DNA of 64,000 nucleotides from Paramecium tetraurelia (taxonomy: Eukaryota): positions 62,001 to 126,000 of the forward strand of contig CT868052.1 of the NCBI GenBank assembly GCA_000165425.1, read 5' to 3'. The position numbers were made by a program, and so were the translations under genes. Below are positions 11,344 to 60,969 of this stretch, in pieces. Below the pieces are notes generated by a model. That model searched no databases and was not told the DNA's origin. It saw nothing but the letters and a program-made list of their open reading frames with translations. Position 1 is the stretch's first letter. Every line of letters starts with the position of its first letter.

Positions 11344-13720
11344 ATGCTACACGACTTATTATTTTCGTTGTTAGGTAAACCAGGTTCATTTGTCAAATAA
11401 TTTGATAACTCACCCTTCTACATTGATGAATCTTTGAATCTTTTTTCAAAACCTGAAATAGTTTAATTGAATCAAATTGTGAATTTGGGATATCATTATT
11501 AGCAAATAGACAATTTCTTGTAAAATCAAGAAGAGAAAAGCAGCTACATTAAAGTAAAACCATAAATAAATATGCTAGGCTTTGGTGTTTGGAATTGACA
11601 ACAGTTTGAATGATTATAGATAAACAATATTGACTTTGGAATAAGAGTATCTGAATGAAAAAATGTTCATAGTATCCTAACTAAATGTGAGACTATAAGC
11701 ATATTATTAAATTCTATTGAATTTGCATACATCCATCAACATAATACAGTAACACAATATGCGCGGGGGATAAATACTAGATTACCTTTATGAAAGAACA
11801 CTCACAGGAAATGACAAACTCTAACTAATTTATCAAAACATTCTGTCAGCCTGTTACGAAGTGTTATTTTAATAATTGTCCTCTTGGTTGTAGTATGGTT
11901 AAATTTTAGACACTTCAGATGAATTTTTTATTTAAAGAATTGACGAGAAAAAGAAAACTGATTAGCATGAATACAATTGGGATACTTCATTTACATTAAA
12001 TATATAGATGTTACCATTACATTTTATCACTTTACAGATGGCCGATAAAATATTATTCATAGGAAAGGCGGTGAAAGTCTTGAAAGGACAATAAGAGTTA
12101 TTCATTAATGAGCATTAACAATTGATAAGAGAAATTGAAGTTTATGATTCCTTTACCTTTAACCGAATCATTGACTAATTGCAAAAATAAGTGGGTGAAT
12201 AATTGGTTTAAGTGATTGTCGATAAACAAGAATTGTTTATTCATTTGAAAAACTTTTATTTATTTATACTCCTTAATAATGGCAATTTTATTCAGCAATT
12301 CTTATCCGATTGCTAATCAATCCTCCAACTACCTTAGACATAACAAGCCTTATAAGAGCTAAACTTCAATCTTCACAAGATGGATTATGATTAGACAGAG
12401 AAAATGGATATGTTTATTTACAATAATGGATTCGAATACAAGACCTTCCAATCCTTAAATAATTTATAGATTAAAAATAATGTTATTTAGACAATCAATA
12501 TATTGAGAATGGGACCTGCTCGAGGTCCTGAAGATTGGAGTGGAGTTTTTAGAGATGTCAAACAATCAATTGAAAATGGATTTACATTGCAAATTGTTTT
12601 TAAATTCAAATAATAATTATCAAAACCATTGGGAGGATATTCAATTTTATAGGTTCCATAGGATTTGAGTACAAGTTTAGTACTGTTATTTTGTCAAGAT
12701 GAAGAAAATGGAGTGTTCATTAGATTGAAATTGGATCAATAGAAAGTTTCTTCTTTATCAGTTGAATCAAAAATTAAATTTAAAGAAGAAATTATTTACA
12801 AATGGAAATTGGACAAAATAGATTTTTCAGAAGGAGATTTGCATAGTTTAAAAATTAATTATTAAAATGATGAATTATCATTAATTATAGATGATACTTA
12901 GAGTGATACATAGTGTAAAACTGACATATTGCCTCCTTCTTAATGGAAAAAAGTGGCTTTTAAATTTTAAAAATATTTTCAATTGGAATTAGGACGATGT
13001 ATGGTAGGAATTAAACAATATGGTTAAATAGTGGATTTATATACATGGAAGATGATAGGAAGCAACTTTTTGAATGATGCTTCTTGGAGTGGTCTTACGT
13101 TGAAGTATTAAGTAGACTATCCATTATCTCTGCTTATCACACCTTCATTATAAGAGAAATTCTAATTATTCTTTAGATATTTATTCCCTATTCGACATGC
13201 TTAATTTGAATTGCAATAGGTGTGGATTAAACTCACAAAAAAATTCAAAAAAAAGGATTGCAAATATATATTGGGAATGCATACCTAATTGATGCATGTT
13301 GTCAATGCTTTTTATCATTACTTTTAGATGGATATCATTGCTGTTTAGTGGTCTAAAATGATATCAAGGATGCAAAATGAAATTAACTTTGAATTGATGA
13401 GAAAAATAATGGATGAATTTGAGTAATCTGTTTCTAATTAATTATTTTTGAATTTGCAATAGATTGTCAAGAACATTTTTCAAATAATCAAATTTGTACA
13501 CAAATACATTGAGTTAGTCAATAGAATTGAATTGTAGCATCACTCATTAATAAATAAAGAATGTTACAAACTAATGGTAGAATTTGATACTTAATTTATT
13601 GCTCTATTCAATCTGATCTAGTTGTTGACCAAAAGTACTAATTAAACTGCTCTATTTCAATTGCTAACAAGGCTTGATTATAATTCCTATTTTGATAATA
13701 AAACCAATGAAAAATTCTGA
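11344..13720 (+). CDS. TUBGCP4: Gamma-tubulin complex component 4 (Spc97/Spc98 GRIP family) with a large internal insertion
   Basis: N-terminus MLHDLLFSLLGKPGSF. Also LRGGQILDYL, ADKILFIGKAVKVL, WSGLTLKYQVDYPLSLLITP and C-terminal QLLTRLDYNSYF. One intron near 11555. Confidence 0.9.
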
Positions 13721-13763
13721 AGCTTCACATAATTTATATATATGTATATTAAAAATAATTAAA

Positions 13764-14230
13764 ATGATTCGTCTCACACACAGTAAATCAGTGGCATGCT
13801 TTTCCGGAGCCTTGTGGGGACCTATACATGAAAGGCCTATCGTCGACAGAGTTATGTCAACATCTTAATGGCCAGTGCCATACTATCAAAGAATTTTCAA
13901 AGCCTATCCAGTTAGATGTACACATTAGATTAAATTAAGAAAATAAATAAACTTGGGCAATGAATTTAGCTGGAGCCGAGATTCACGATATTAATTGGTA
14001 TTGTGCTAAGCAAGCTTTGAGTAGAACTCTTAAGGGAAGATAAGCTGTTGAATATGTCGAAAACAATATCCCAACATAAAGTAAAGTGATTAAAATTTAA
14101 AATAGGTTATATTGTCATTCAAAAAGATGTATCTAGAATGGCAAAAGCATATGTAAGTGATTTAAGTCTTTTCCTTAGTGTGGCTAATAAAGAAAGCAAA
14201 GTCATTTTGGACTCAGTCGAATTGATTTGA
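13764..14230 (+). CDS. Small protein (~140 aa), possibly mitochondrial
   Basis: MIRLTHSKSVACFSGALWGPIHERP...WPVPYYQRIFKAYPVR...ILDSVELI-TGA, with 2 canonical tiny introns. The N-terminus resembles a targeting peptide. Confidence 0.8.
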
Positions 14231-19124: not shown

Positions 19125-21033
19125 TCATAATGAAATTTGGACACCATATTTTTTAAGTTCATCCATTTTTTTCTTCGCTTTAGATGCTATTATAGAATTT
19201 TAGTTCATATAATATAATCTTAGTTATGTTTCAGGATGTTATTTCAAAAACACTAAAATGTGATCAAGTGATTTTTCTGTTAATAAATTTTACTGAAGAT
19301 GCAAAGTATGAATTCTAGATTTTATGATAAATTTACTTAGATTCTGCTAAATTTAGGATTAATTTATGGAATAAATCATCAACTATTAAACATTTGCTTA
19401 ATTTCAACACCTTTATATTTTGAGTTCCTTTTAAATATTCTCCTAGAATCTAAATAATTTAATCATTAAAATCTGAATTATAAAATATAATATACCTATT
19501 TAACTTAAATCTATTATTTCATTTTTGTCTTAATGAATTACAGTTAGTGTTTGAGATAGTTTTTCATTCATTTTTTAATTATTAGTAAATTTTTTAGGCT
19601 ATTTTTAATTGCTATTTTAGATAGTATTGCTAAATTTGGATTACTTTTATACTAATATTTAGGAAGTCTCAAGGAGTTCACAATTTGACAAAGTGGCACT
19701 TCTCTCCTTTTATTTAGAGAATTAAGATTAGACAGAATTGAAGTTTATCTATTTCGCTACATCATATGCAGGTGATGTTGGTTAAGTAGGATATTAAGAT
19801 GGTGAAAAAACTCCTGAATTCCTTTTAAGTTTACCAACATCTATTTTCAATGGTTTTTTTTCTATGACTTTAATTGCTTCTTCGGTAATTTATCTTTCTG
19901 GCACTAGGAAATCCGATTAATCATTTGATTAACTTTTATCAGAAAGATTAGATGGCAAAAGGAGCACAGTATCTTACTTGTTAGTTTCATATTTATTAGT
20001 ATTGAGTCCCATTAATTGGGAAATATAATTTGAGATTACTTATATAGGAACTTAAATCTGATGAGATTTCTAAGTTGAATCAATTGATGTCGTAATCGAT
20101 TCTTTGATTAAGTTAAATTGTTTCAATATAGTTTACCCAGAGTTTATTATAATTTAGTCGAATTTCCTAAATTTCAACTATTATGACTCCTCTACCAATT
20201 GACTTAACTGATAGCTAGCTTGATTAAGCCATTAGTCTGCTTCAATTTGTAGAAGTGAAAATTCATCATCTATTTTATTAAGGATAATCTCTTATGAATT
20301 CTCATATGCTTAATTTATTTTATAAAGAGTCTGCATCTTGATCTCATCTATTTATTTGTTTAAATCACTGAAGTATAAATCAATCTTTGACTTTATGCAA
20401 CATAATTGTTAATGAAACCCTAATGATAACAATTATTCAAGTTATTCTTTATTATTTCTTTCATTTTGAATCTATTTATATAAACAGGATATCTCATTGA
20501 CAGTCAGTTCTATTTATTTCAAGAACTAGTCGATAGGTAGATAATTATGGAATTTATGAGGACCAAATAAAGCACAATTAACACAAATGCATTAACCATC
20601 TTCCTGACATATAAGTTCCAATTCTTTCTAATGCAATTAGCATATTGATGTCTTTGGGGGAGCTTCTGTAGGTGTGAATTATGAGGTAGATTTTTCAGAA
20701 AAATGCTCTGCCATTTCTTTAGTAGAATTTTAAGAATGTTCATCATCAGGAGTTTGATATGTTGCTAAAGTCTTTGCTGACGATTAACGCTTTTTAAGCA
20801 TGGTGAGAATACTTTAATTTTAGGGGAAGCATTTTTGATCTCTATGAACATTACATTCAATTCTTGAATAATTTGCATAGATACCCATCCTCTTTGCATT
20901 TTAATTATTGACCACCACATATATATTATTCAACACATTTATAGCAAACTGAATGACCACAGCTTGGCAAGACATATGGAGAATTATTTGCCGAATTGAA
21001 TTCTGTCTAGCATTAGCAACACTAAAATTCCAT
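19125..21033 (-). CDS. RING finger + B-box + coiled-coil (TRIM-like) protein with C-terminal LRR-like module
   Basis: CCQC..PYVLPSCGHSVCYKC..CKED (RING); CQLHQKELELICQEDGQCICVNCALFGPHKFH (B-box); IKVLKLSKC..IHTLHLQQNLLTEK (LRR). Confidence 0.85.
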
Positions 21034-21073
21034 TAATTATTTATATTATTTTTAATGTACTGTGATTAAATTT

Positions 21074-21567
21074 TCATCTATAACTCTTTTGTCTTCTGGC
21101 TCTGGCACCCTTACCACCATACTTTCTTGGTTCGCATCTTCTTGGATCAGCAACTAAGAGAGTTCTATCATATTGTAATAAAAGATCTTTGATTTCTCTC
21201 TTTTAGGTTTCATCTACATATTTTTAATAGTATGCCACGATGCCTTTGCTAATTGCCTATACAATATATAATTGCCATTCTACCTATCTGATAGCATAAA
21301 TTTATGCAGTGCTTCCACCACCTCTGACAGTGACTCTGATGTCTAATCTGCCTGTTCTGACTTAACCAAGAAGCAAAAGTGGTTCAAGAGCCTTTTGTCT
21401 CAAGGGAGCTGGGTTCACTAATTCAATTGGAGCACCATTCACTCTAACCAAACCTTGGATTAAATGTATCGAGTACCCTTTCCTTCTCTCACACTTGCAC
21501 TGGCAACAGCATTCTTCTTTCTACCAAAAGATTGAACCAATTTTGATTTTGTTTGAGGAGTTGACAT
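21074..21567 (-). CDS. RPS16: 40S ribosomal protein S16 (uS9)
   Basis: [12 protein letters not shown]...[24 protein letters not shown]...[31 protein letters not shown]. 2 introns. Confidence 0.98.
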
Positions 21568-23614: not shown

Positions 23615-25053
23615 TCAATGTTATCTTCCAAATTCTCTTTCCTTTTTTAATACAGTTCTAAACCCAGATTCTCTATTAAAATATTAATCAGGAACCTTTG
23701 ATAAATATCCAGCTTCTGGGTTTACTAATTCAATTCCTTAAGTGGGTGTAAAGGCAATGCTTGAAGTTAATCCACCAGTACCACCTCCAGATTGAGTCTT
23801 CGTTTGTGCAAGTCTCTATTATAATTTCTTACTGAGACCAATTGGCTTATCCTTCTTGATGTGTAACTTTACTTTGCCAATACCTTGACTTAACATTCCC
23901 AACCCAATTCCTGTGTCCTTGATTTCATCCTCAGCCTCCAATCCAAATTTCAATCTATTAGCATACTTCCTCACTTCTGTCATAGCCAATCTTTCTTTCT
24001 ATTTTCTGAACCTCTTCCCTCCTCTTCTTCTCTTCTTGTTCTCATCTGGAATAGGTAATGGTTTTTCTAATTTAGCAGGAGGAGGTTCTTAAATCTTCTA
24101 ATATCTCTTCATCATTTTTATTCTTAGATCCTCTCCTACATTTCCTTTGGGACATGTCTTCATATTATCAACTCTGGCTGCTTTGGCCACATTGGTTGCT
24201 AACATCCTTACTATTTGATTTTACAATTTCCCTGACGCTTTCTGTACAATCTCCAATGTTCCAAAATAACCAGTGTTTCTATTATGCATAGCTCTACTCA
24301 TTCCCAACATATTTTTCTTAACACTTCCCATCACTTAAATGTTACCTGCTGGCATATTGGCAAGCTTTTCAATTCCTCCTGCAGCTGCCATCAACTTAGA
24401 TGCCAATTGTGTACCTATTAAGGCTGAGACATTTGGAGCTATGTACTTCATTCTAGATTCAATATAGCAGATGACTAAAATTTTGATATAAGTTGTACTT
24501 TTCTAATTGTAGCTATCTAATGTCTCGATCTTATGACACAACTAATCAACCAAGGAGATGTCTTCCTCTGAAAGTTAACCAATTAAGGATTGTTTAGCAG
24601 CTATATTGACAGCAACTACTTGCTAACCACTCAAAAGTTATGAAAAATCTATGGCTTGAAGATCTATAGCATTTCGAATTAACCTGACTATCTTAACATA
24701 CTCGATAGGGTTTATGATTATTTTTTCCAATTCTGGAAACTTCTTATGGTATACATCCTTCAATTATTTATGGATATTCAAAATCCTTATGTTATTCAAA
24801 ATGAATACTCTTAATCAATGATTGTACTATATTCATTTGACCTTAAAATTAGATGATATTCTTCGTGACTTGCATTTATAGTTTCATCTTAGATTTGATA
24901 AGCAGATACTTCTAAAACTCTTTGATAATGCTAAAGAAATTTGTTATCTTTAAGTAAAGAACAAGTTGGTTCATCCTCAACCTATTATTTTGCCTCTGCA
25001 ATTTGTTGCTCTTCCTCTTCCTCCAAATCTTGCATAAAATCTTTGTCAATCAT
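23615..25053 (-). CDS. PRP31: U4/U6 snRNP protein Prp31
   Basis: YHKKFPELEKII; IESRMKYIAPNVSALIG; MPAGNIQVMG; EPPPAKLEKPLPIPDENKKRRRGGKRFRK; GLTSSIAFTPTQGIELVNP. Confidence 0.97.
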
Positions 25054-28747: not shown

Positions 28748-31700
28748 ATGAAGAAAACCTTAATAACATTCTTGTTGTTGATGGTTGTGGTTATCTCTAC
28801 GAAAATAGAAGCATCAGAGCTTAGAACTCAAGGTATATTTATATAAAATATCAGGGATGACCTACACTGAAGCATAAAATCTAGATGTTTCTCGTTTAAA
28901 TTGCCACATCGATTTTGAATACACGATTGGGGAGTTGGCAAGATGGGTTGATATTATAGATAATCGAGATCAATTGATCAAAGATCTTGCAATAATTAAT
29001 TAAGTGATAAGCATCGTGGAAAAAGCAAAAGGATCAATATCTGTGATTCATTCCTCTATGCTTTTGCAAATATAAAGTAAAGTGAGTAAATCACTCCAAA
29101 GTGTATTTATATAAAACAAATGGGCAGCTTGTAAAGTAGAGGATGCCCTTGAATATGTGGCATAATTAAATGGCACTTAAAGTATTCATTTTGATTATCA
29201 CTTAGCAATTGAGGAGAAGATTGCTTTAGCGAATAAAATCATAGCCCAATTGAGGCAGACCTAGGATTAGATTCACTAATACTTGGATTAATGCTCATAT
29301 GCAAAACGTACTCAAGGATTGAGATAGAAGATAAGTTAGCTTCAAACATTAAAGAGAGTATGTGACCAAGAAATAAAGAAGCCAACAATAATTATAGATA
29401 ACGATCCTGATGACGAGGTATTAAATTTTGATGAGGAGCCAGAAGAAACAATTTATTATTATTTTGAAGAGGAAGACGTTGAGACTCCTCCCGATTACAT
29501 TTATCATGAACCTCAACATTACACCTATCCAACATATTAGGATGAGACCAAAAAACCATAAAAAAAATAAGTTAAGAAGATAGTGCCAAAAGAAGTAGTT
29601 GATGAAATCAAAGGAAATAAAAGATATGTAGCCTTGGGTCATGAGATTGAAGGAGAAGTGAAGGATAATGTGGATGAATAATAAAATTAATAAGAAGAGA
29701 CATAATTTGTAGTTTCCCCAGCCAAGGTTAGTAAGATAGAGGGTCTGAATAATGAAGATGATGGTAGTGAGAAAACAGATGGTGATAAGGAGAAAACATA
29801 AGGAGAAGAAGAATAAAAAGAATAAACTAATGGAGAGGAAACTAACGAAAACACTGGATCTGAATAAGAGTAGATAATAGTTGAAACTCATGATAAACCC
29901 TTAACATAAGATGAATCTGAAATAAAAGAGAATGTAACTATTGATGAATCTAAAAATGTCACTGTCGATGAGACTAAAGCTGGAAATGCTGATGATGATG
30001 ATACTACTACTGAAGTTAAGATCACAACAGTTCATAAGACTGAATAAACTGATAATGAAAGTGATGAAACAAAAGATACAGACAGTTAAGAATAAGAATC
30101 CACTGAGGAATCTACAGATGAATAAACATAGAAAGAAACTACTTAATAATCTTAAGGAACAGAAACAACTCATGAATCAGGATCAAGTACAGAAAATGAA
30201 GGAGATGTGGTTGTTGATAATTAATCTAAAAGTTAAGATGATGAACATGTTATTTCAATTGGATCATCAAGGGTTGAACATAAAAAGGATGTTTAAAAAT
30301 AAGAAGGTGAAGTATAATAAGAGGGTGAAGTATAATAAGAAGAGGGTGAAGTATAATAAGAAGAAGCTGAAGTAAAATAAGAAGAAGGTGAATAAAAATA
30401 AGAAGAAGCTGAAGTATAATAATAAGAAGCTGAATAAAAATAAGAAGAAAGTGAGTAAAAGTAAGAAGAAAGTGAATAAAAGTAAGAAGAAGGCGAATAA
30501 AAGTAAGAAGAAAGTGAATAAAAGTAAGAAGAAGGACATACCCATGAATAAAGTGAAGATCACAAGGATTCTCAAAAGAACTAAAATGATGAGAAGAAAA
30601 TAAAAAAACAAAAGATTAGTGATGATCGTTCATTAAAGATCTAATCATTAAGAGAAGAACCAAATCCAAATGAACCAACATAATTTTAACCACCAAAACA
30701 TCGGGCTAATTCAGGTCGTGTTTAAGAAAGAAAAGTCGTAGCTGTAAATACAAAATATTAAAATTCTGACTTCGATGGTGAACCAACAGAATAATTCGAA
30801 TTCACTGACCGATCCTTACTTCAAGACTCTTCTGAATATGGATATGGATATTGGGTCAGATACACAGAACATGGAGTTAAGGAACATAGTAGAGAGGATG
30901 GGGAATACTATTTCTTATCAAGAATGACAATAAATGAGGAGTATGAAGATTTTTCATTTTATGGAGACAGAGCCTTAGCAGTATTTATGTTCGATAATTC
31001 CTTTGTATTCAGCACATACGATACAAGCGAGAAATTGAAGACTAAAGATAAGGCAGTAGTATTAAATGAAAACATGGACAGTATGTGGTATTTCGTTATG
31101 TTCTCTTACAGTAATCCATTAAGAAAAGCTGTTGGTTATATTGCAAGTTATGGGGAAGGTAATGGAATATATAGAGTGGAAATAGATGGTACTCACATTC
31201 CACCTTCTTATATCAAACTCATATTTGGTGGTAAACATATGGATTATCATGGATTAAATGGACAATTTGCAAATATCTTCTTTGATATTGATGCTCCAGC
31301 ATTTGTCGATGGAGATGAAGCCTTGGATGAAATCCTCAACACCTTGAGTAATCCTCCTTAGAGTGTTCCTGCTATGATAGATGAAACTGTAGTTTAGAAA
31401 CCTAAACATTTGAATGGAAATGATAAAGGAGAGTAGTACCACTTTGATCCATAAGAATCTTAATTGATCATAGAAGAATATGCAGTTGGTTTATGGTTTA
31501 GATGGATCGATGACTTAAAAGTGGATGAACCAAATACATTTTAGTTGATTAATTTGAGATCGAACAAAGTCAAATCTGCAGGAAAAGGAGTCTTAGGAGA
31601 TAGAGCATTAGAAGTACATTATACATATGGTGGTGGTGCAAAGAGTACAGTCTACTTCAACACTTATACAACTAAGGGTAATAGAGCTAAGGGATAACCA

Positions 31701-34700
31701 TACTTATCAAAGACAGTAGAAAGTGTTGAGTTCATTTGGACTTATGTTTACTTTGGATATGATAATGATGGAGGACGTGCCTATGGTGCAGTGATTAAAC
31801 CAGGACTAGTGGGAGAAGTTAAATTTGAAGGCATCTAACACAAATTGGTTAACAGTTTGAGTGTTACTTTAGGTGGTGATGATGTCATATCCCCATTCAA
31901 TGGTATGATTGGATATGTTGGTATTTACCTTGGAACAGGAGCATACAGAGAATGTTTAGAATTTGAGATGACGTTCAATGATTGGGAAGGAGTCATGGGA
32001 GTGTATTAAGTCGGTAAGCCAATCACTTACATTGCTGGAGATGCTAATTAAGCTAGAGATGTAGCATATGATGCTTCAGAAAATGTTGTGGATAAAATTA
32101 TAATTCATAATGAGGAGGGAATGAAAATTAATGGGTAAAGTGAATATGGTTTTGGATTATGGACTAGATGGTTGAGTACATTGCCTAAATATTTGAATAA
32201 GAGAGCACCAGTACATACTATTGCTAGAATGGGTACTTAAGGTTATGTTATTGAATCTATTGATGGTAAATTAGTTAGATCTAATGCTAACAGACCAAGT
32301 ACTCCTAAGGATACTACTTTGTCAATTTCTTTGACTCCAGATTCTTATGAATTCTAAACTTTGGAATTGAAAGATGATATTGAGTTTTCTTAATTAGAAG
32401 GACATTGGAATTATGTCTACTTTGGATATATTAGACATGGTGATTAGGGATTGGCCAAAGGATACGTTCAATTTGGTGTTGATGGTGAAGTTGATGAAGT
32501 AATTTTCGACACTTTCCATGATTATTTACTTGAGTATGTTGAATTCATAGTTGGCAAAACCTCAGCTCCATTATTCAATGGTGAAATGGCAAGAATATCA
32601 TTTTCATTTGGACCTGGATCATTCATACCCACAATGGATACATTAAAAATCTTTATTCAGAATACTCTACCAGAAAAGGCTCAGATTCATCCAGTGGCCA
32701 GACAAACTTTATAATTGGTGGGAGCACCTCAATAGCTTAAGGAAGAACCTATTCAATTCGAATTCGACAAGTATTAAGGAGCAGAAGAATATGCTATTTC
32801 AGGATGGGTCAGATGGAGTGGTCCACTTGTCACTGGTAAAGTGTCTCATCTCATAACGATGGCTTAGAAGAGATTGGAGGATTTGGATGGTAAGAATGAA
32901 GAGACCTTACAAATAGTCAGAGGAGATCAAGCCTTCACTTTCATTACCTATAGTCAACATGAAGGTGAATACAAATTGGCTACTTAAGATGAAGCCTATG
33001 GGGAATATGCTGATCAATGGACATACATTTATTATGGATTTTCTTAATCGAAACAATAGACTTATGGTTATTTGAAATTTACATTTACAGAGAGCGAATT
33101 TAGATAAGAAAAGGTTAATCACTTTTATTTGGCTGTGTTCTCTGTATTGATCTAAGAGAAATAACAATACACTTAATTTATTGGCCAAATTAAAACATGG
33201 GTTATTAATATTGGAGATGGAGCATTCAGAGAGGGAGGATTTGATGAAAATGAAAATATTAAAGTTCATTTCGGATTCGTCAGCGGAACCGATCATTATC
33301 AAATTACAATAGGCTGGATAAGAAGCACATCATGAAGAGACCATTCTAGAATGTTCATCATAAAGTGATGAGGTACCTTTACATATAGAATTCGAACAAA
33401 GTGATAAATTGCACTTGCATGGTGTTAGTGAATATGGTTATGGCTATTGGGTTAAATTCCAATATTTCGCAAGCAAGAATACCATATATAGCAGACCATA
33501 ATTAATGGGATTGAGTAGACTCACCAGCAATAAAGATTACAAAGATTTTGATCATCCAGGAGACAGAGTACTCTTAGTTTTATTAGGAAAATAATCCTAT
33601 CATTTTGGAACCTACGATGTAATTACTAAATCAAATAATGTCGCTGGAGATATTCCTTATCAAGTTGACTCTGAAAGCGAATGGACATACATTTATTTCA
33701 GTTTTAAGAGAATTTCATAAACCTAAGGACATGCCATGGCCTTCACTTATTACAAAGACACTACATCAGGCATTCAAATGGATGTGATGCACTCATTATT
33801 AAATGACTATTTGTAATTGACTGTTGGTAATGCAGGCAAATATTATACAAATTTCAATGGACAAATTACTACAATCAGATTCAATCTTGGTCCAGGTGCC
33901 TATATCGATACCAAATAGGGTTTACTCTAAAGAATCAAGAATAAGGATGTTATGCCTGATATATTGGGTCCCACCAAAAAGTATGAGGTTTTGATTGGAA
34001 AACACGATGTTACCAAGATAGAAGAGGATTAACATATTACACACATAAATGAAGAGGCCAGAGAATATGGAATCTAATTATGGTTCAGGTGGTTCAAATC
34101 ACCAATTAAGACTCAATAGTTGATTTATAGATTCACTTCTTCAAATCCCGATTCTTTGGGTGATGCATAAAAAATAGGAGATAGAACCTTGGCTCTATTC
34201 CATACTGATGGCATAGAATTCAGTACTTATAACTTAAATCCTCTATCTTTGTAGAACACATATGAAGCTAAAATCCCATCATAATAATTGGAAGTTTGGA
34301 CATTTGTATATTTTGGTTATTCCAAACATCATTAGAAAGTTAGTTACTATTTATTGGCTGATGATGATGAACACAAAGGATTAGAATAAGCTTTACATGT
34401 TGTCTCTAATAATTACTGGTTATTCTTAGTAAAGGATGCAATGACAAAACCATTCGATAGTAGATTGGCTCAAGTTATTTTGAATATTGGAGATGGCAGT
34501 TACAGAGAAGATAACTTCAACACTCTTTAAGTCTATTTGGCAGCTCCTAAATTGTTTAGTACTGATAGTAAATTTGATTGGGAAGCTGATGATACTATAA
34601 CATTAGTTTCAGGTGATCCAGACAAATAAGGGTTGAAGATTACATTCTCTGAACCTGATAGAAATATAGAGAGTGTTTAGGAATATTCAGTTGGTCTATG

Positions 34701-37229
34701 GACTAGATTCTTGTAAGCATGGCCAGAGAGATAATGGCATACTCCATCTGAAATGTAGATCGTAAGATTAACTTACAATGATGAAGTGGATCATGGCAAA
34801 ATTGCTATTGGAGATAGAGTATTAAATGCCATGGTTGTTTTAGAAAATTATTAATTTGGAACTTATGACTTGAACGATGATGCTCCTAATGAAATCAGCA
34901 CTATTCCTTATACTCATTTGGAAGGAAGATGGCATTACATATATCTTGGATATAAGAGACAATTGTAACAAGCTAACTACTTTGTATTTGATGGAGATGA
35001 AATTAAACACGCCGCAAATGAGAAATTATTACATAAACCACTTGGTGATTTCATTCATTTGATTTTGGGAGGAGAAAAGGATGTTGCTCCATTCTAAGGT
35101 TTATTTACTGAAGTAGCTGCTCATTTTGGAGTTGGATCATTCATAGCATCAGGTGAAGATTTGATGAAATCAATTGACACTAGTTTTGCTTTACCTTAAG
35201 AATTAACCGTTGATTATATTCATAAACAAAAACATGGTTAACAATAGTTAATTGGTGAAAGTGATAATAATGAAGGTAGTGAAAGTACTGGTGATACTTG
35301 GAGTGGAGTAGGAGAATATGCTATTTCTGGTTGGTTTAAGATTGCAGAAACTTAAGTGAAGAAAGAAGGAGAGATAAATTCACCTTGTTAAATATTATTC
35401 AGGATCACTAACAATGATAAAGAACATTTAAGTGATCGTAAATCATAAGGAGATAGAGCATTACATGCTTAAATATGTACTAGTGACACTGTTAAATTGA
35501 GTACTTATACATTGAAAGGATTAAAGGATTGGAATGAAGCTAAATTCTTAGAAGAAAAAGTGGAACTTGGTTACTCAAAGAAGGCATGGGCATATTTATA
35601 TATGGCTTATAATGAAAATGTTGGTGAAGTTCACACTTTATTACACCTATTTGAGGAGGATAAACCAGTTATTTTCAAAGGAGTTCAACACTTTGTTCCA
35701 CATTTCATAGGAATCTATGTGGGCAAGGATCCTCATAGTAGAAGATTCTAAGGAGAGTTGTAGAAATGGGTTGCTTAATACGGATAAGGAGCATTTGTTG
35801 ATGTAATGAAGAAAGGCTATGAAGATACACTACCTAACTTTAGACATATTCAAATTAATTAAAAATATCTCTGGTTTGAAAAAGAAGATAGAATTATTTA
35901 AACACCAGAAAAGGTTGAATAGACATTCACATCTGAAACTGAATCAGTCGATGAATATGCAGTTGGTGTTTGGACTAGATGGTTAATAGCATTCCCTACT
36001 ACTCTGACTGATAGAGCAGATGTCCACACTATTTTCAGATTCTCAAGCACACATCAATATTAAGACAAGAGTGAATTGGGTAATAGGGTATTGTCAGCCT
36101 TCCTTACAAAAGGAAATTACGAATTCAGTACATATGATGCATCTAAACCTGCCAATGCAGTTGATGCTTAATTGCCTTATGAAAATATTGAAGGTGAATG
36201 GACTTATGTTTATGCTGCCTATAAGAATAAGAATTTCTATGGCATGGTCTTATTTAAGGATCAATAAAAGGCAGCCCATCTAAACATGGAAGTGACTCAT
36301 CAAGTGTTAACTGGTTATGCTCATTTTGTCTTAGGAGCTAATGAATTCGGATATAAAGCATTCCATGGCTGGTTCTATGACCCAAGAATATTCTTAGGTG
36401 CTGGAAGTTACATCAGTGAATCCCAAAAGGTTGTAGAGATGATCCATAAATTACACAGAAAATTGCCAGTAACACCTTAATAGGCTGAAGATTTCAAATG
36501 GCCAGTCTCTTTGTTGGATACAACCAATCAGGATGACCTTGATTCTAAAAAGGATTAATTGAACTTTGAATTCACAGACAAGGCAGAAATGTAATCCTAT
36601 AGTATTGGATTCTGGTTCCAAAATGCTATGTTACTTCCTGAAATGGAAAATGATTTCACTTCTTTAGTTCGCTTAACCACCAATGGACCTGATCTTGCAG
36701 CAGACGATAAGTTTATTGGAGATAGAACCTTAGCATTCTTTACAAAGACCGATAAGTTGATGGCTAGTACTTATACAATTAAGGATCCATCATTTGAACC
36801 ATTGTCCCATACTTTCGACATTAAAGAGCACCAGTGGACATTCGTGTACTTTGGATACGAGAAACCTCACGCCAGAGCCTATGTACTCAATCCTAATGGA
36901 CCAACTGAGAAGATTTTCATTGCTTAACACATAGTCCCTAATGCTTTTTACTTAAGAGTTGTAAATGATCTTGGCCATCCATCTTTTTGGGTATATTATT
37001 ATTTTAATAATTACAGGGTAAAATCTATGGATTAAAGGTCAATTTCGGTGAAGGTAGCTATTTTGAGAATCCATTGGAATTAATTGACAAATGGCCTTAT
37101 GATCCAAAAAAACATTCTGACATTGATAAATAAGGAGATAAAGTCTTATGTATTTCTATATTTCTAATTACAATAGCTATTAATTCTGCCAAGGTCACAA
37201 AACAAAAGAGTGATGATGCCAATGAATGA
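28748..37229 (+). CDS. Giant secreted protein (~2,800 aa): signal peptide, helical N-domain, acidic E/Q/D linker, about 10 LamG/ConA-like repeats; apparent frameshift near 33297
   Basis: MKKTLITFLLLMVVVIS signal. Repeats EY(G/A)xGxWxR...GDRxL...FSTY...WxxxYFGY. Introns at ~28832, ~36992 and ~37149. TGA at 37227-37229. Confidence 0.85.
30300..30535 (+). repeat. Imperfect 21-nt tandem repeat encoding QEE(G/A/S)E(V/Q)(Q/K)
   Basis: Units such as taagaagaaggtgaataaaaa and taagaagaaagtgaataaaag, repeated about 10 times. Confidence 0.85.
30780..37100 (+). repeat. About 10 tandem ~210-aa protein domains (LamG/ConA-like)
   Basis: GDR/GNR-xL motif at about 30963, 31597, 33560, 34177, 34810, 35449, 36078 and 36718, with degenerate copies near 32305 and 32900. 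Spacing about 630 nt. Confidence 0.8.
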
Positions 37230-37318
37230 GCTATAAACTAATAGATCAGTATTTATTTTATATCTTTCAATACAAGCATATATAAATTTAATCTTTCTGA
37301 GTACAATAAAATAAACTA

Positions 37319-38067
37319 TCAATTTTTTAATGCATCCTTCAATCTACTCTTTCTTTGATTTCCATTCATCTACGCTAAAATACGTTACATCAAAGCAGCC
37401 TTATAAGGATTGTGTTGATCAATGTCTCTAGACAACTGTTTCGGATCGAGGTACTTTTTCCTTATATAATCAAGATCATTTCTAAGAATACAGTTTAAAT
37501 TTACAGTCTCTAGAGATATACCTTATGAACATTATTTATTTAAGTGTTGTCATTAGCAGTCTATACTTATACTCTCTATTTCTTAGGAGCATAATCATCT
37601 AGAATGTCCTAATCCTAGAACACATTATAAGTCTATTGCTACTATTTCCTCTCCTATAGAGGTTGATCCTGATGTTGCATTTATTGAGGTTAATTTAATT
37701 GATACCCTCGATCTGTCTACCACTATTCTGAGCTTGGTTATTTGAATATATTGTCTTGCATAACTTATTTCCGTATTCGTTCTTCATTAAAATTCTTTCG
37801 ACTTAATGTTGTTCTCTCTTGGGATGAAGCTTAAAAAGATTAAACCTAAGGTTGTTTGTATTACGATTGAAGTTGCCCAATTTTAAAAGGAGATTCCTAC
37901 TTTATTGGAGATTGTTGCAGTTAAAATTTAGGTTGCTGCTAAGAGAATTTAAACTAAGGAATTTATTATTATTGAGGTGCCATTTGCATATCATATCCAA
38001 GTTTCACTTAATCAAACATTTCATCTTCGAATAAATGCCTGTATTTGCTATAAAATTATTATGACAT
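37319..38067 (-). CDS. Hypothetical Gln-rich protein
   Basis: MSQQFYSKYRHLFEDE...DIDQHNPYKAALMQRILAQMNGNQRKSRLKDALKN-TGA. One intron. Confidence 0.7.
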
Positions 38068-42824: not shown

Positions 42825-44379
42825 TCAACGTATACTGATATTCTGTGGAACCAATTAGCATTTATTATTTTATGATTCACCAAAACTTTAAGGATAGATA
42901 TTCCAAAATCTCAATGTCTCATCTCCTGCTCCAGTTACAATGGTATATCCATCAGGAGACATAGCTAAATAGAGAACACTTAAAATTAATAAATGATATC
43001 TTACCGACTAGTGTGACCAACCAAAGTTGCAATTCTTTTCATTCCATTACATTTCCACAAAATAATCTAATGCTGACTGTAACCATGAGTAGAAATGAGT
43101 TCATTTTCCATCTTACTGAACATTAAATTGCAAACTTAACTTCCAGTATCTTCCTTTGATAATAGTTTTCCTTCTAAAGCATTCCAAAATCTGATAGTTT
43201 TATCTGCAGTTCCTCCACCACTTGCTAATAATCCATGTTAATGAGGACTCCAAGCTATAGCTTTAACAGCTGCTTAATGTTCTGTGAATTTGAATATTGG
43301 CTTATCATGTTAAGCTGCACTCCAAATGTATAATTTGTTATCATTTCCTCCTGATGCTAGTAATTGACTGTCTGGTGACCATTTCAATCCACATACCTCT
43401 TATTTATGAGCAGTCTATTTAAAGAAGTAGTCTTCCTTTTATCTTAAATCTCTTTAAAGTATTGATTTATCTCTTGAACCACTACTTAACATGCTCTCAG
43501 CAAAACATAGGGTTCCTACTCTGGCAACATGACTTTTATAAGTCCTTACTTTTTATAATTTACAAGCATCCCATATTTAAACTTCACCATTGTTTGTTCC
43601 CACACCCAAAAATGGTCCTCTCAATGACCATCCAACACTTGTTACTATATCATTACTTAGATCAAGTAGCTTTGTTACTTTTGATGATTGGGCATTCCTA
43701 CTTTTAAATTAGAATTGTACCACAAATACACACAGTTACTAAGTGCTACAGAAAGGGTATTTTGATTGCTCCAATCTATTAAATTTAGATAGAAATCATC
43801 TTATAATTATGGGGCATCCAAAACTTTAAAAGGCACTTTTGGAATTTTTCTTATGTATTTCCCATAATAGCTGGACATAGTTTCTGGCAATGCGAAGTAT
43901 TTATGATCCACCAAAGGACTTTTATTATTTTCATATTGTTTACCTATTGTAATTTTTTGGATCTATAGAATCTATATAATGAAGATGTTCATTCTTGTAT
44001 TAGAAATTATTTTGGTTCACAAATTTCAATGAACCATTTTCTGGCTCCATTACAGGCTCCTAATCAAGAATTTATTATTTATATAGCATTTCCAATGCAG
44101 CCTAAGATGATGCAATGTCTTGGGCCGGAGCCTTAGTTTCAGATAGTATATTGAATTTCTTCTTGATCATTGGGATGAAACGATCTCCAGCACAACTGTT
44201 TCTTCTCTTCTAATCTGAATTTCCTAAATTGATTAAATTTTCCTATTGCTGAGCACTAATAGGATCTGGTTGCTTCCCATGGATCATAGTCTGAATCTTG
44301 GACAATGAAGTCTGAGCGCATGAACTAGAACAATCCTAAAATATGATATCCCTATTACTTGAAGTTTTAGCTATGACAT
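42825..44379 (-). CDS. FZR1: APC/C activator Fizzy-related / CDH1 (CDC20 family WD40)
   Basis: C-box [59 protein letters not shown]-terminal IR tail (SIR-TGA). Confidence 0.93.
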
Positions 44380-52143: not shown

Positions 52144-52789
52144 ATGGGTGATATTATCCCTAATTAACTATTTGTTGCTGGGTACAGCCGTAGCAAGGTA
52201 TAGGATGAGAAGGACGTGAGAGATATCTTCAAAAAGTACGGAGCTATCAAAGAAGTTGCGTACAAGGGATCTTATTCATTTGTTGTATGAACTAATTTCG
52301 AAATTAAGACCTTCAGTAATGAGTAGGAAGCACAAGAGGCTTTGAAGAGTACCAACGGGTAAACTTACAATGGCCAAAAATTGAAAGTGGATGTGGTTGA
52401 CAATCGTAAAGGAAGGAAGACAGGTCCAAATGAGGAAGATAAATGTTTCAAATGCAATAAAGGTGGTCATTGGTAAATGTTTAATTAAATTTCTAGGGCT
52501 CGTAATTGTCCCAATATCAAATCACCTAGACGTAGTAGGAGAAGATCCGATTCGAGATCAAAGTATAAAGATATTTAAATTTAGGCGCCGTCACAGAAGA
52601 TCTGAATCAAGATCATATTCTTCTTATTCATCATCCAGATCTAGAAGAAGAAGATATCAAAACAAAAGAAAGAGACACAGCAGAAGCCCTAGAAGAGATC
52701 AAAGGATCAGAAAAAGAAGTGTTAGTCCAAAGAGATCACCTTCTGATTCAGCCTCATCCAAAAGACCGAATTCAAACTCAAAATCTTGA
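52144..52789 (+). CDS. SR splicing factor with RRM, CCHC zinc knuckle and RS domain (SRSF7/9G8-like)
   Basis: LFVAGY..KGSYSFVTF..EAQEAL..NG; CFKCNKGGHWARNCP; RS-rich tail. 3 introns. Confidence 0.92.
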
Positions 52790-52883
52790 TAAAGAATGGG
52801 AAAAAAAACTCATTTTATTACAAAAGAAATATAAACAATTAATTGAATATAATTTATTCAATTCTTCTCATAACATTATCATT

Positions 52884-54482
52884 ATGAAAAAAAGAACACT
52901 TCAGGATCTGTCTGAAGAACAAGCCCAGATTAATTAATCTTACATCGAAATCAATTCGGTTTAGAAGGAACTCTATTTAGAAAACCAAAAAAGGCTGAAA
53001 GAAAAGCAAAAAGAGAGCAACCCCATTGTAGTCATCGAAGACGATGAAATCAAATAGCCGGTTGAAGAAGGTGAACTTTAATTATCTTTTCCTATTGGAA
53101 CATTTTGTTTGAATTGTCTGACACAGTATCCTACAGATGATAGACAGCCACATCACTTACCATTTATTAACATCCTTTACGAAAATGCACATATAGATGT
53201 CAAAACTTAAAAGCCAAAAAAAACATTGGAAAGTGCTCTAATGACTTGCTTTAAATTTGAAGATGAATTATTAGAACCTTTAGTAAAATCAGGTGTTCAA
53301 CTCTACATTGTGAATGACAATGACAATTTAAACAAGAAGCTTGAAATTATTGAAAGATATAACAATTATCCAAATTGGACGGTAATTAAGCCATCAAAAT
53401 TGAGTACCAATATGTTTGGAGGTGCATTCCACCCTAAAATATGGATTCTAAAATTTCCTAAATTTATTCGGATTGTCATCGGAAGTTAAAATTTACATGT
53501 TGGAGATTGGACAATATGGTCTTAAGGAATGTGGATTTAAGACTTCAAAATAGGGAAAAGTGAGTTAGACCAAACCTCTTAAGAGTTCAAAAGCATGCTC
53601 AGAGAATTCTTATACGAAATATTGCCTACCTCTCATAAATTTGAAGATCTCCTCAAAATTAAATATGATGATTATGATTTCAAAGATGTTAATATCAGAC
53701 TCATCACATCCATCCCAGGCAGATTCGTAGGCAATTAATTATTTAAATATGGTATGATGAGACTGCAGTCAGTCATATATTAAGAACTTTGCAATAACAA
53801 AATGGAAATCCCTAAATAAGTTTGTGTCACTTATTAAACCACTAGTATAGGATAGATGGATAATAATTACGTTGATTTTGTATTGTAGTGTTGCACAGGA
53901 AGGGTTTATAAATAACAATTACCAAACGAGTAGAGTACCAAAAAAATAAACTAGATGATTCTAAATCAATAAGAGGAAGAATAATCAAAATTGAAATTAA
54001 TATATCCGACAGCAGATTATATTGAAAATTAGACTCATGGAGGAGTTGACTTTGCTAATCCATTGCACTTAAAATAGTAATCATATGAAAGTCCTAAATT
54101 TCCTAAGCATCTATTTTATAAATACTAAGGGTCAGATCACTACTATTGGCATACTGGTAACATTCCTCATTTAAAGGTTATGATAATTACAGGTTTAGAT
54201 GAAGATATAAATGATTAGACATCTATATATATTGGAAGTCATAATTTTAGTTAAGGTGCTTGGGGAAAAATGGAAAAAAATGCAACGCAATTGTTCATCT
54301 CTAATACAGAATTAGGTGTCTTATATCCTCCAAAAAAAAATTCAGCTCAAATTAAATAATAAATTATAGAATAACTTTCATTCAAATTTCCTCCATTAAA
54401 GTATGATAAGGATGATCAACCTTGGATTGTTGAGGCATATTATGAAAGATTGTCAAAAGAATACTAGTAATAAAATAAATGA
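52884..54482 (+). CDS. TDP1: Tyrosyl-DNA phosphodiesterase 1 (PLD superfamily)
   Basis: Two HxK motifs (GAFHPKIW..IGSQNL; IPHLKVM..IGSHNFSQGAWG), plus LITSIPG, LIYPT and NTELGVLY. Confidence 0.92.
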
Positions 54483-59835: not shown

Positions 59836-60941
59836 TCATAACTTTGGTTTTTCATTATTGTGCTAGCCAACTTTTGGTATATCTTTAATTTAATATTAAT
59901 AATCTGAGAATATGGGTTATCCATTAACCTCAATTTTCCCATTCCTTTTAATAAAAACATTTTCTCCTAAATAATTCTTAGTTTCATATTCCTCCAATTC
60001 TACCACAGGCGATACACAAGCATCATATTAATCAAAAATATTCTCCCACTCATCCCTCGTTTTACTTTCAAATAATTTCGATATTTCTGATTTCAAATTC
60101 TCCCATTCAGTTTAATTCAATTGATTTTCCAATACAAATTAACCTCTTAATTATTCTATGAATTGTACCTTTATTAACTGAGTCCACCTGCAATTAAGCC
60201 TCTCACAAATTCTTAATAAAACTTTTCCTCCAAACATCCCACACTCATAAATTTTCCATCCTTACATTAATAAATGTTATAGAAATGAGTTCCTCCATCA
60301 AGTAAATTATTCCCAATTCCATTAGACCATAATTTTTCATTTTTTTAATGTAAAATAAATTGACTTAAATAAGCAGATCCTTAAGCCATGCCCAAATCAA
60401 TTTATTAACCATCCCCACCCTTTTAAACATTAATTAAAGCTGCTAAAATACTGGCTACTCCTAACATCCCTCCTGCTGCGAAATCCCCTACAACATTTCC
60501 AGGAATAGCTGGTCTTTTTTAAGTTCCTGTACTAGAACAATATCCAAGAACTCCCCCGTAAGAAATAAAATTGATATCATGACCAGCCTTTTCTTTTAAA
60601 GGACTGTTCTAACCAAAACCTGTAACTCTGCAATAAATTAATTTAGGATTGATCTTTGAACAAACCTAATAAGATAACCCTAGTCTTTCCAACACTCCTG
60701 GACGATAAGGATCAATAAGAACATTGCTATCTTTAATCATATGTTTAACAATATCAATGTCTTGTTTGCATTTGAGATCGAATGTCATACTCTTTTTACC
60801 TCGATTCATGGGACTGTTTTAAGGTTAAGAATCTAATCTTGATAACAAGGTAACTTGAGCTCCATAATCGGCTAGCACCATGCCTATGAATACAGTTGGA
60901 GCTAATCCAGCAAACTCTAAGACCTTAATTTAGGAAAGCAT
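59836..60941 (-). CDS. AMACR: Alpha-methylacyl-CoA racemase-like (CoA-transferase family III)
   Basis: [53 protein letters not shown]. Ends PKL-TGA. Confidence 0.88.
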
Positions 60942-60969
60942 TTTATGTTTTTTAAATTTAATTAATAAA

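What the first reader, a model, noticed from the sequence alone, without database searches (positions are those of the whole stretch)
12431..13060. L-type (legume) lectin-like domain inserted into the GRIP2 region of gamma-tubulin complex protein GCP4
Seen: between GCP4 motifs (...YLLLNNGNFIQQF... and WSGLTLKYQVDYPL...) lies an extra ~210-aa beta-rich stretch: FEYKTF..ILRMG..WSGVF..QSIENGFTLQIVFKF..EGDLHSLKINYQNDELSLIID..LELGRCMVGI..LYTWKM. Established: this residue pattern resembles ConA/L-type lectin folds, and animal GCP4 has only a short loop at this point. Inference: ciliate GCP4 carries an extra folded domain on the gamma-TuRC surface that may dock basal-body or cortical partners. The usual sugar/metal-binding residues look absent.
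Basis: partly seen in the sequence, partly recalled or inferred. Interest (0 to 1): 0.75.

Follow-up and report, generated by a model that had tools for sequence, protein, structure and literature searches.

The report
Lectin-fold domain inside Paramecium GCP4
The Paramecium version of GCP4, a core part of the machine that starts microtubules, carries an extra, conserved and transcribed domain of about 210 residues that most likely has a legume-lectin type fold; its job is unknown.

Summary
Window 12431-13060 (+, ciliate code) lies inside one long exon of the Paramecium tetraurelia GCP4 orthologue (783 aa, 100% identical to a deposited protein). Against human GCP4, 237 residues stand where human has 53, inside GRIP2. 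It is not an intron or an artefact. Oligo-dT RNA reads cover it at the same low depth as the flanks. The same insert sits at the same site in three other GCP4-like sequences (about 24-40% identity) and is as conserved as the GRIP domains.

Function, position on the ring and spread across ciliates remain untested. My searches found no description in print. I rate it a new variant of a known kind, of moderate interest.

The parts
11344..11553 (+). GCP4 exon 1 (Met1-Lys70)
   Evidence: Reading from ATG 11344 in code 6 gives MLHDLL...SSYIK, identical to P0003 residues 1-70.
11554..11578 (+). 25-nt intron, GTAAAACC...GCTAG
   Evidence: It is the only GTA...TAG candidate that joins ...SSYIK to ALVFGIDN... 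as in the deposited protein. RNA depth there was too low to show the joint.
11579..13720 (+). GCP4 exon 2 (Ala71-Phe783) plus the TGA stop at 13718-13720
   Evidence: Translation matches P0003.
11524..12226 (+). GRIP1 (Pfam GCP_N_terminal), spanning the intron
   Evidence: PF17681, E 4.4e-45, 154.9 bits, P0001 residues 23-248.
12227..12367 (+). First part of GRIP2 (helices aligned to human GCP4 up to residue 394)
   Evidence: phmmer stretch 2 aligns query 169-295 to human 256-394.
12368..13078 (+). Region with no aligned counterpart in human GCP4: 237 aa against 53 aa in human
   Evidence: This is the gap between phmmer stretches 2 and 3.
12431..13060 (+).
   Evidence: Searches show homologues at the same site. 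One search gives the lectin fold for the P0009 equivalent. One search shows RNA reads. One search gives Laminin_G_2 at E 0.0038, below the curated cut-off.
13079..13696 (+). Second part of GRIP2 (WSGLTLKYQVDYPL... to the C-terminus)
   Evidence: phmmer stretch 3 aligns query 533-738 to human 448-656. PF04130 scores 107.8 bits.

Best explanation
Shown:
- Window 12431-13060 encodes an integral, transcribed part of the Paramecium tetraurelia GCP4 orthologue.
- It is a segment of about 210-230 residues inserted in a loop of the GRIP2 (gamma-tubulin-binding) domain.
- It is conserved at the same site in at least three other, distantly related GCP4-like sequences.
- It is as conserved as the GRIP domains themselves.

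Supported through a homologue: the segment folds as a ConA-like beta-sandwich closest to L-type (legume, ERGIC-53, VIP36) lectins.

[quoted passage not shown] My preferred mechanism is that it acts as a built-in docking site. A lineage-specific partner (an anchoring or regulatory factor at basal bodies or other ciliate microtubule-organising sites) would hold or regulate the ring through it. This is analogous to the way paralogue-specific insertions of GCP5 and GCP6 dock NEDD1 in animals.
For: - Gene identity.
- Insert site and size: (237 aa against 53 aa in human).
- Transcription. All 8 insert bins are covered in X21, all but a trace of the reads lie in one direction, and no joint was reported.
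- Conservation at the same site: P0009 (837 aa, full GCP4-like, with Pfam GCP_N and GCP_C), P0010 and locus L001. BLASTP of the insert gives 3e-13 and 7e-12.
- Constraint: identity between P0003 and P0009 is 28.5% in the insert, 26.5% in GRIP1 and 24.3% in the second part of GRIP2.
- Fold, Atlas model of P0009 residues 375-615: TM 0.64-0.77 over 188-222 aligned residues. In 5 of 10 rows the aligned part met the bar for Lectin_legB or Lectin_leg-like. A sixth row is a Lectin_legB cluster that stayed under the bar. The best feature hits were legume-lectin clusters at 0.87.
- Fold, Atlas features of the window's own insert: ConA-like and Laminin_G_3 clusters at 0.95.
- Fold, my AlphaFold model of the P0009 insert: about 13 strands, pLDDT 51.5, pTM 0.51.
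- Fold, VIA-align of that model: by title, 30 of the 50 rows are galectins (15), L-type lectins (8) or GH16-type glucanases (7). The L-type rows align the most residues, for example ERGIC-53 at 158-160, peanut lectin at 154 and the Entamoeba legume-lectin-like domain at 152.
- Precedent for insertions as docking or bracing elements (passages read): the GCP5 and GCP6 insertions probably dock the NEDD1 pinwheel (10.1101/2024.11.05.622067). The Candida Spc98 GRIP2 insertion bridges to Spc97 (PMC7658347).
- Passages of a review say GCP4 normally has no extra sequence outside the grip motifs (PMC5881034).
Against: - No sequence link to L-type lectins was found. Pfam gives only Laminin_G_2 at 18.1 bits, below the 22.9 cut-off, and this is not repeated in P0009 or P0010.
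- Profile searches of the PDB found no lectin.
- hhalign against six bacterial PF18483 domains gave probability 0.45%, E 0.13, over 28 columns.
- The Atlas comparison has predicted models on both sides.
- No evidence bears on any partner, on where the domain sits on the ring, or on localisation.
- The exhaustive search found no named ciliate outside Paramecium.
- RNA depth was too low to exclude a minor spliced isoform.
Confidence: 0.5

Rival explanations
1. Intra-complex brace. The beta-sandwich packs against gamma-tubulin or the GRIP2 domain of the neighbouring spoke. It would set or stabilise ring geometry rather than recruit an outside partner.
For: - The Candida Spc98 GRIP2 insertion does this: it bridges to Spc97 GRIP2 and contacts a gamma-tubulin insertion, and deleting it splays the spokes (PMC7658347, passages and section 11).
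- In a 2013 modelled GCP4-gamma-tubulin complex, GCP4 Leu404 is a persistent contact with gamma-tubulin (PMC3655011, passages). Leu404 is ten residues past the last aligned residue before the insert site (human 394), so the insert may emerge near that interface.
- The insert is as conserved as the core domains, which fits a structural role.
Against: - No model of the domain in the context of the full protein or the complex was obtained.
- The 2013 interface comes from a homology and molecular-dynamics model made before the cryo-EM structures.
- No covariation or interface prediction was run.
Confidence: 0.25
2. Working lectin. The domain binds a carbohydrate, for example a glycosylated partner or structure, and targets the ring by sugar recognition.
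For: - The nearest folds are carbohydrate-recognition domains: legume lectins, ERGIC-53, VIP36 and Emp47p.
- Weak Pfam matches are to Laminin_G_2 and to CBM_4_9, a carbohydrate-binding module. Both are below their cut-offs.
Against: - In six bacterial PF18483 domains, the G-x-D-G Asp-Gly motif and the Asp of the E-F-D motif are invariant.
- The GCP4 inserts share no invariant column at all and no such motif.
- hhalign aligns only one strand pair, not the motif region.
- GCP4 is a cytoplasmic protein, whereas classical L-type lectins act in the secretory pathway or outside the cell (recalled, not tested).
Confidence: 0.08
3. Not part of the mature protein. The stretch would be an unspliced intron, a retained germline-type eliminated sequence, or an annotation read-through that happens to be open because only TGA stops translation.
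For: - Open frames are cheap here: 49 frames of 220 aa or more in 64 kb.
- One in-frame GTA...TAG candidate of 33 nt lies inside the insert at 12999-13031.
- Two of the three RNA runs have empty bins inside the insert.
Against: - Paramecium-type introns in this gene are about 25 nt, while the insert is 630 nt.
- Homologous inserts sit at the same site in P0009, P0010 and L001, with protein-level conservation equal to the GRIP domains.
- The 33-nt candidate encodes the conserved motif LGRCxVG.
- Stranded poly(A) reads lie inside the insert, and no joint was reported.
- The window matches a macronuclear record.
Confidence: 0.03

Closest known systems
Human, Xenopus and pig GCP4 (TUBGCP4; PDB 3RIP, 6V6S, 7AS4, 9G3X and others)
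   Same: It has the two-domain GRIP1 and GRIP2 architecture. It is the best solved relative (E 1.1e-49), with three collinear aligned stretches covering both domains.
   Different: Paramecium has 237 residues where human has 53, between human residues 394 and 448. Passages of a review describe GCP4 as the GCP without extra sequence outside the grip motifs (PMC5881034). Paramecium also has a shorter loop where human has residues 207-256.
L-type lectin domains (Pfam Lectin_legB PF00139, Lectin_leg-like PF03388, Lectin_L-type_dom PF18483; for example peanut and pea lectin, ERGIC-53, VIP36, Emp47p)
   Different: No sequence or profile similarity was detected. The motifs that are invariant in bacterial members have no conserved counterpart. 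It is inserted inside a cytoplasmic helical protein, not a secretory-pathway or extracellular domain (the latter point is recalled).
Lineage- or paralogue-specific insertions in other GCPs (Candida Spc98 Asn626-Leu656 in GRIP2; human GCP5 and GCP6 insertions)
   Same: These are extra elements grafted onto the conserved GRIP scaffold, and they create new interfaces: Spc98 to Spc97 and gamma-tubulin, and GCP5 and GCP6 to the NEDD1 pinwheel (PMC7658347 and 10.1101/2024.11.05.622067, passages).
   Different: [quoted passage not shown] This one is a complete globular beta-sandwich domain, and it is in GCP4.
Laminin G / LamG_3 (ConA-like clan)
   Same: The only Pfam family touched by the window's insert is Laminin_G_2 (E 0.0038). 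Atlas feature neighbours of the insert include Laminin_G_3 clusters at 0.95.
   Different: The Pfam score is below the curated cut-off (18.1 against 22.9 bits) and is not repeated in P0009 or P0010. Structure neighbours of the homologue are L-type lectins, not LamG.

Membership tests
GCP4 (gamma-tubulin complex component 4) | GCP_N_terminal (GRIP1) domain above the Pfam cut-off | tested here: met
   PF17681 scores 154.9 bits against a cut-off of 29.4.
GCP4 (gamma-tubulin complex component 4) | GCP_C_terminal (GRIP2) domain above the Pfam cut-off | tested here: met
   PF04130 scores 107.8 bits against a cut-off of 25.8, in two stretches split by the insert.
GCP4 (gamma-tubulin complex component 4) | Closer to GCP4 than to GCP2, GCP3, GCP5 or GCP6 | tested here: met
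   phmmer against the PDB gives GCP4 at 1.1e-49, GCP2 at 4.4e-18, GCP3 at 4.4e-12 and GCP6 at 1e-07. No tree was built.
GCP4 (gamma-tubulin complex component 4) | [quoted passage not shown] | tested here: not met
   There are 237 aa where human has 53. This is the variant feature and not a reason to exclude orthology.
GCP4 (gamma-tubulin complex component 4) | Incorporation into a gamma-tubulin ring complex and binding of gamma-tubulin | not testable with these tools
L-type (legume) lectin domain | Match to Pfam PF00139, PF03388 or PF18483 | tested here: not met
   None was listed for P0001 or P0002 at E <= 1, nor for P0009, P0010, P0005, P0004 or P0008 at E <= 5.
L-type (legume) lectin domain | Profile-profile similarity to family members | tested here: not met
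   hhalign of the insert alignment A5 against six bacterial PF18483 domains (A6) gave probability 0.45%, E 0.13, over 28 columns. Both alignments are shallow (Neff 2.3 and about 3).
L-type (legume) lectin domain | Beta-sandwich fold superposable on family members | tested here: inconclusive
L-type (legume) lectin domain | Conserved sugar-binding Asp (G-x-D-G) and metal-binding acidic motif (E-F-D...N/H) | tested here: inconclusive
   These positions are invariant in A6 (G71, D73, G74 and D110). A5 has no invariant column and no such motif. No trustworthy residue-level alignment exists. The assignment of these motifs to sugar and metal binding is recalled.
L-type (legume) lectin domain | Carbohydrate binding | not testable with these tools
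   This needs a biochemical assay.
Laminin G (PF02210) | Score above the Pfam gathering cut-off | tested here: not met
   18.1 bits (insert alone) and 15.6 bits (whole frame) against a cut-off of 22.9. Absent from P0009 and P0010.

The most novel reading that the evidence does not exclude
The lectin-fold domain is a built-in anchoring adaptor. It recognises a feature of the basal-body or cortical microtubule scaffold, either a protein or a post-translationally modified surface. It would fix gamma-tubulin ring complexes there directly through GCP4. In these organisms it would take over the job that separate attachment factors do in animals; a 2026 preprint on mammalian cells reports augmin binding GCP4 to anchor luminal rings in basal bodies (10.64898/2026.10.08.757802, passages). 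A fold-level relative in a GCP4-like protein read in the standard code (P0009) would then suggest that the module is older than Paramecium and perhaps wider than oligohymenophorean ciliates.
Probability: 0.18. Interest if true: 0.8.

Novelty: new variant of a known kind. Interest (0 to 1): 0.55.

Why it matters
Passages of a review treat GCP4 as the minimal, insertion-free member of the GCP family (PMC5881034). It occupies defined spokes of the gamma-tubulin ring: positions 9 and 11 in the human complex (PMC7280788, passages). A complete globular domain grafted into its gamma-tubulin-binding half would be a marker of about 25 kDa on specific spokes. It could be recognised in cryo-ET maps of ciliate basal bodies.

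It also gives a direct genetic handle. A deletion-rescue experiment could ask how ciliates target or shape their microtubule nucleators at thousands of basal bodies.

It is also an example of a lectin fold reused inside a cytoskeletal protein, apparently without the sugar site.

If the domain proves to be neutral decoration, the finding is only a curiosity of protein evolution.

Tried and rejected
- Word-indexed homologue searches returned only the protein itself, three of three times: region 280-560, the whole protein, and the P0003+P0009 profile. They say nothing about distribution.
- No whole genome is held for the window.
- Foldseek against the PDB with the P0009-insert model gave no hit at E <= 0.001. 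The weak rows were galectins, spike N-terminal domains and GH16 enzymes.
- Profile searches of PDB sequences with A3 and A5 gave only 2aua at E 0.026 and 0.06, over one strand pair. I treated this as chance.
- hhalign against bacterial L-type lectin domains gave probability 0.45%.
A five-row alignment then found one locus among 298 pattern matches.
- The look-up of sequencing runs listed no RNA holder among the indexed runs. I laid three raw oligo-dT runs of the same species label instead.
- Earlier findings of this scan returned nothing, by sequence or by words.
- I tested whether the insert derives from the neighbouring giant repeat protein (33151-37728). BLASTP found nothing better than E 0.87.
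- The intron, eliminated-sequence and read-through reading was rejected (see the rival explanations).
- Complex prediction was not used, because no partner sequence was available and I claim no specific binding pair.
- Guillet et al. 2011, the GCP4 crystal structure paper, is not held. I therefore could not look up the secondary structure or the order or disorder of human residues 395-447.
- The supplements of PMC7658347 hold Tetrahymena GCP3 and gamma-tubulin alignments but no GCP4. One of its supplementary files is a picture-only PDF and could not be searched.
Full report
**What is at the coordinates**

It lies inside a 745-codon open frame, 11483-13717. The frame belongs to a gene whose product is 100% identical to a deposited Paramecium tetraurelia macronuclear protein of 783 aa, named 'Spindle pole body component' by UniRef.

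The gene model that reproduces this protein is:
- exon 1: 11344-11553
- intron: 25 nt, GTA...TAG, 11554-11578
- exon 2: 11579-13717
- stop: TGA at 13718-13720

The insert lies wholly inside exon 2.

**Which protein it is**

Pfam finds GCP_N_terminal (154.9 bits) and GCP_C_terminal (107.8 bits, in two stretches). Among all solved structures the best sequence relatives are vertebrate GCP4 chains (E 1.1e-49). They stand far ahead of GCP2 (4.4e-18), GCP3 (4.4e-12) and GCP6 (1e-07).

The alignment to human GCP4 has three collinear pieces. The second ends at query 295 and human 394. The third starts at query 533 and human 448. Paramecium therefore has 237 residues where human GCP4 has 53, inside the GRIP2 (gamma-tubulin-binding) half.

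[quoted passage not shown] I could not read the GCP4 crystal-structure paper. What the 53 human residues look like in the structure is therefore not documented here.

**Is it more than chance, and is it in the mRNA?**

An open frame alone means little in this genome. With TGA as the only stop, the 64-kb window has 49 stop-to-stop frames of 220 codons or more. Two other lines of evidence decide the question.

The first is conservation.
- An exhaustive phmmer search of 1.84 billion representative proteins with the insert alone found 7 proteins at E <= 0.001.
- Five are short fragments at 57-71% identity. One is from P. octaurelia by name; the rest are unnamed.
- The other two are P0009 and P0010. 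P0009 is an unnamed 837-aa protein with Pfam GCP_N and GCP_C domains. P0010 is an unnamed 261-aa fragment.
- A metagenome scan added locus L001, one relative among 298 pattern matches. It is a ciliate-code GCP4 fragment with the same insert at 40% identity, interrupted by introns that I place at 1029-1103 and 1377-1422.
- In every case the homologous segment sits between the same GRIP2 landmarks.
- Pairwise BLASTP of the insert against P0009 and P0010 gives 3e-13 and 7e-12.
- Between P. tetraurelia and P0009, identity is 28.5% in the insert, 26.5% in GRIP1 and 24.3% in the distal part of GRIP2. The insert is under about the same constraint as the core.

The second is RNA.
- I laid three oligo-dT RNA-seq runs of the same species label, with 58-nt reads.
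- In run X21 all eight depth bins overlapping the insert are covered (0.2-5.2), like the flanks (1.3-5.7).
- Across the gene's bins all but a trace of the reads (first-mate-on-+ depth 0.61 and 0.05 in two X21 bins) lie in one direction, and no joint was reported.
- The depth is low. The other two runs have empty bins, and a joint needs three reads to be listed. A minor isoform is therefore not excluded, and the annotated 25-nt intron itself was not seen.
- The one in-frame GTA...TAG candidate inside the insert (12999-13031) encodes the conserved LGRCxVG motif. It is coding sequence.

**What fold it has**

Sequence methods give only hints.
- Pfam Laminin_G_2 scores E 0.0038, 18.1 bits, below the 22.9 cut-off, and CBM_4_9 scores E 0.043.
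- Neither hit is repeated in P0009 or P0010.
- Profile searches of PDB sequences found nothing relevant.

The language-model neighbours of the window's insert in the ESM Atlas are unnamed clusters and ConA-like or Laminin_G_3 clusters, at 0.95.

The strongest evidence comes through the homologue.
- The Atlas holds P0009 letter for letter, with its own model (pTM 0.63, mean pLDDT 0.74).
- Residues 375-615 of that model superpose on models of Lectin_legB and Lectin_leg-like (ERGIC-53-like) clusters at TM 0.64-0.77 over 188-222 aligned residues.
- In 5 of the 10 rows shown, the aligned part met the service's bar for one of these two families. A sixth row is a Lectin_legB cluster (98%) that stayed under the bar.
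- The feature neighbours of that part are legume-lectin clusters at 0.87.

My own AlphaFold runs add little.
- The Paramecium segment failed, at pLDDT 36.8.
- The P0009 segment, with a 10-row alignment, gave a beta-rich model of about 13 strands at pLDDT 51.5 and pTM 0.51.
- Foldseek found nothing at E <= 0.001 with that model.
- By title, 30 of the 50 rows are galectins (15), L-type lectins (8) or GH16-type glucanases (7). The L-type rows have the longest aligned lengths: ERGIC-53 at 158-160, peanut lectin at 154 and the Entamoeba legume-lectin-like domain at 152.

I conclude that a ConA-like beta-sandwich is likely and that an L-type lectin is its best-supported nearest fold. This rests on predicted structures of a homologue and not on the window's own sequence.

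**Membership in the L-type lectin family, and the sugar site**

To test membership by sequence, I collected six bacterial Lectin_L-type_dom (PF18483) domains from 401 genomes and compared profiles. hhalign gave probability 0.45%, E 0.13. It aligned only 28 columns: the strand pair around DFSxxDLxxLKIxYxN against ...DGxWHxVxxxW....

The bacterial domains share an invariant G-x-D-G motif and an invariant Asp in an E-F-D motif. From memory, these are the sugar-binding and metal-binding positions. The GCP4 inserts share no invariant column and no such motif.

Without a reliable residue-level alignment it is not shown.

By eye, and from recalled lectin motifs only, several insert motifs resemble strands of L-type lectins: GFxxxxF...NNLQ, KQxxExGFxxxxxFxF, LKIxYxNxxLxxxxxD and LGRCxVG...VDLxxWK. 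I give this no weight.

**How it probably works**

No tool result bears on function. From established examples, extra elements on the GRIP scaffold create interfaces.
- The GCP5 and GCP6 insertions are proposed to dock the NEDD1 pinwheel (10.1101/2024.11.05.622067, passages).
- The Candida Spc98 GRIP2 insertion bridges to Spc97 and gamma-tubulin, and its deletion splays the spokes (PMC7658347, passages and section 11).

I therefore commit to a protein-protein interaction module. My estimates are:
- docking of a lineage-specific partner: about 0.35
- an intra-complex brace: about 0.25
- a working lectin: under 0.1

In favour of the brace, a 2013 modelled complex lists GCP4 Leu404 among persistent gamma-tubulin contacts (PMC3655011, passages). 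Leu404 is ten residues past the last aligned position before the insert site, so the domain may emerge near that interface. That model predates the cryo-EM structures.

**Distribution**

Named carriers are Paramecium only. P0009 was predicted as one 837-aa frame, apparently without recoded stops. L001 uses TAA and TAG as sense codons and has introns of 46-75 nt by my placement. At least two further lineages therefore carry the insert, and I did not try to identify them.

No named ciliate outside Paramecium appeared in the exhaustive search. With a single-sequence query and P0009 itself only at E 2.2e-4, this does not show absence.

**Novelty**

The deposited protein carries only the two GCP Pfam domains. 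Six full-text searches found no description of a lectin-like or other folded insertion in GCP4:
- GCP4 + ciliate
- GCP4 + insertion + GRIP2
- Tetrahymena + GCP4 + gamma-tubulin + basal body
- Paramecium + gamma-tubulin + GCP + basal body duplication, at least three of the four terms
- GCP4 + lectin
- Tetrahymena + gamma-TuRC + subtomogram + basal body + A-tubule, at least four of the five terms, from 2020

The five GCP4 + lectin papers were seen as a listing only. Their titles and abstract openings do not concern such a domain, and each mentions lectin only one to three times. The library lacks most subscription journals and no database annotations were searched, so 'not in print' is limited to these searches.

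**Verdict**

The functional reading is plausible and untested. I rate it a new variant of a known kind, of moderate interest.

Noticed in passing
window 28782-37728 (+): Two overlapping, very long open frames (1517 and 1526 aa in code 6). An acidic Glu/Gln-rich part is followed by roughly ten repeats of a module of about 200 aa. The recurring motifs are EY(A/G)xGxW(V/F/T)RW, GDRxL, FSTYD and W(T/H)(Y/F)VYFGY. No Pfam family was found at E <= 1e-4. From memory the pattern resembles LamG_3-type repeats. It shows no similarity to the GCP4 insert (best E 0.87).
   Followed up: partly
window 13762-13850 (+): A small gene starts about 45 nt after the GCP4 stop, with ATG at 13764. It is covered about 86-132 times in the same RNA runs that cover GCP4 about 0-6 times. 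Many read ends pile up at 13762-13773. The 130-aa frame there has no Pfam family.
   Followed up: no
protein P0005 (P. octaurelia, CAD8141306.1, 229 aa), compared with window 12249-12506: The annotated P. octaurelia protein covers the same GCP4 region but looks scrambled. Part of it (…QIIYRLKI…) matches another reading frame of the Paramecium insert DNA (window frame 12249-12506), and several conserved pieces are skipped. It may be a mis-modelled gene or a decaying duplicate.
   Followed up: no
Atlas result for P0009 residues 375-615 (features row 4): An Spc97/Spc98-family cluster of 1041-aa proteins (417 members; Oomycota the commonest phylum among the few members with a recorded phylum) is among the nearest feature neighbours (0.86) of the insert part of P0009. 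This is a lead that some stramenopile GCPs may carry something similar. It could also come from the few flanking GRIP2 residues.
   Followed up: no
L001:1029-1103 and L001:1377-1422: In the metagenome relative, I place two AT-rich introns of 75 and 46 nt inside the insert. This placement is mine, by eye, from the DNA, the frames and the alignment to the Paramecium insert. The Paramecium gene has no intron there, and its only intron is 25 nt. Neither intron sits at a domain boundary.
   Followed up: partly
window, other genes: Pfam assignments of the other long frames: B-box zinc finger (19407-21146, -), Prp31/Nop (23618-24814, -), CDC20/Fizzy WD40 (42914-43795, -), tyrosyl-DNA phosphodiesterase (52434-54479, +), CoA-transferase family III (60120-61400, -) and a type I phosphodiesterase-like protein (60859-62997, +).
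   Followed up: no
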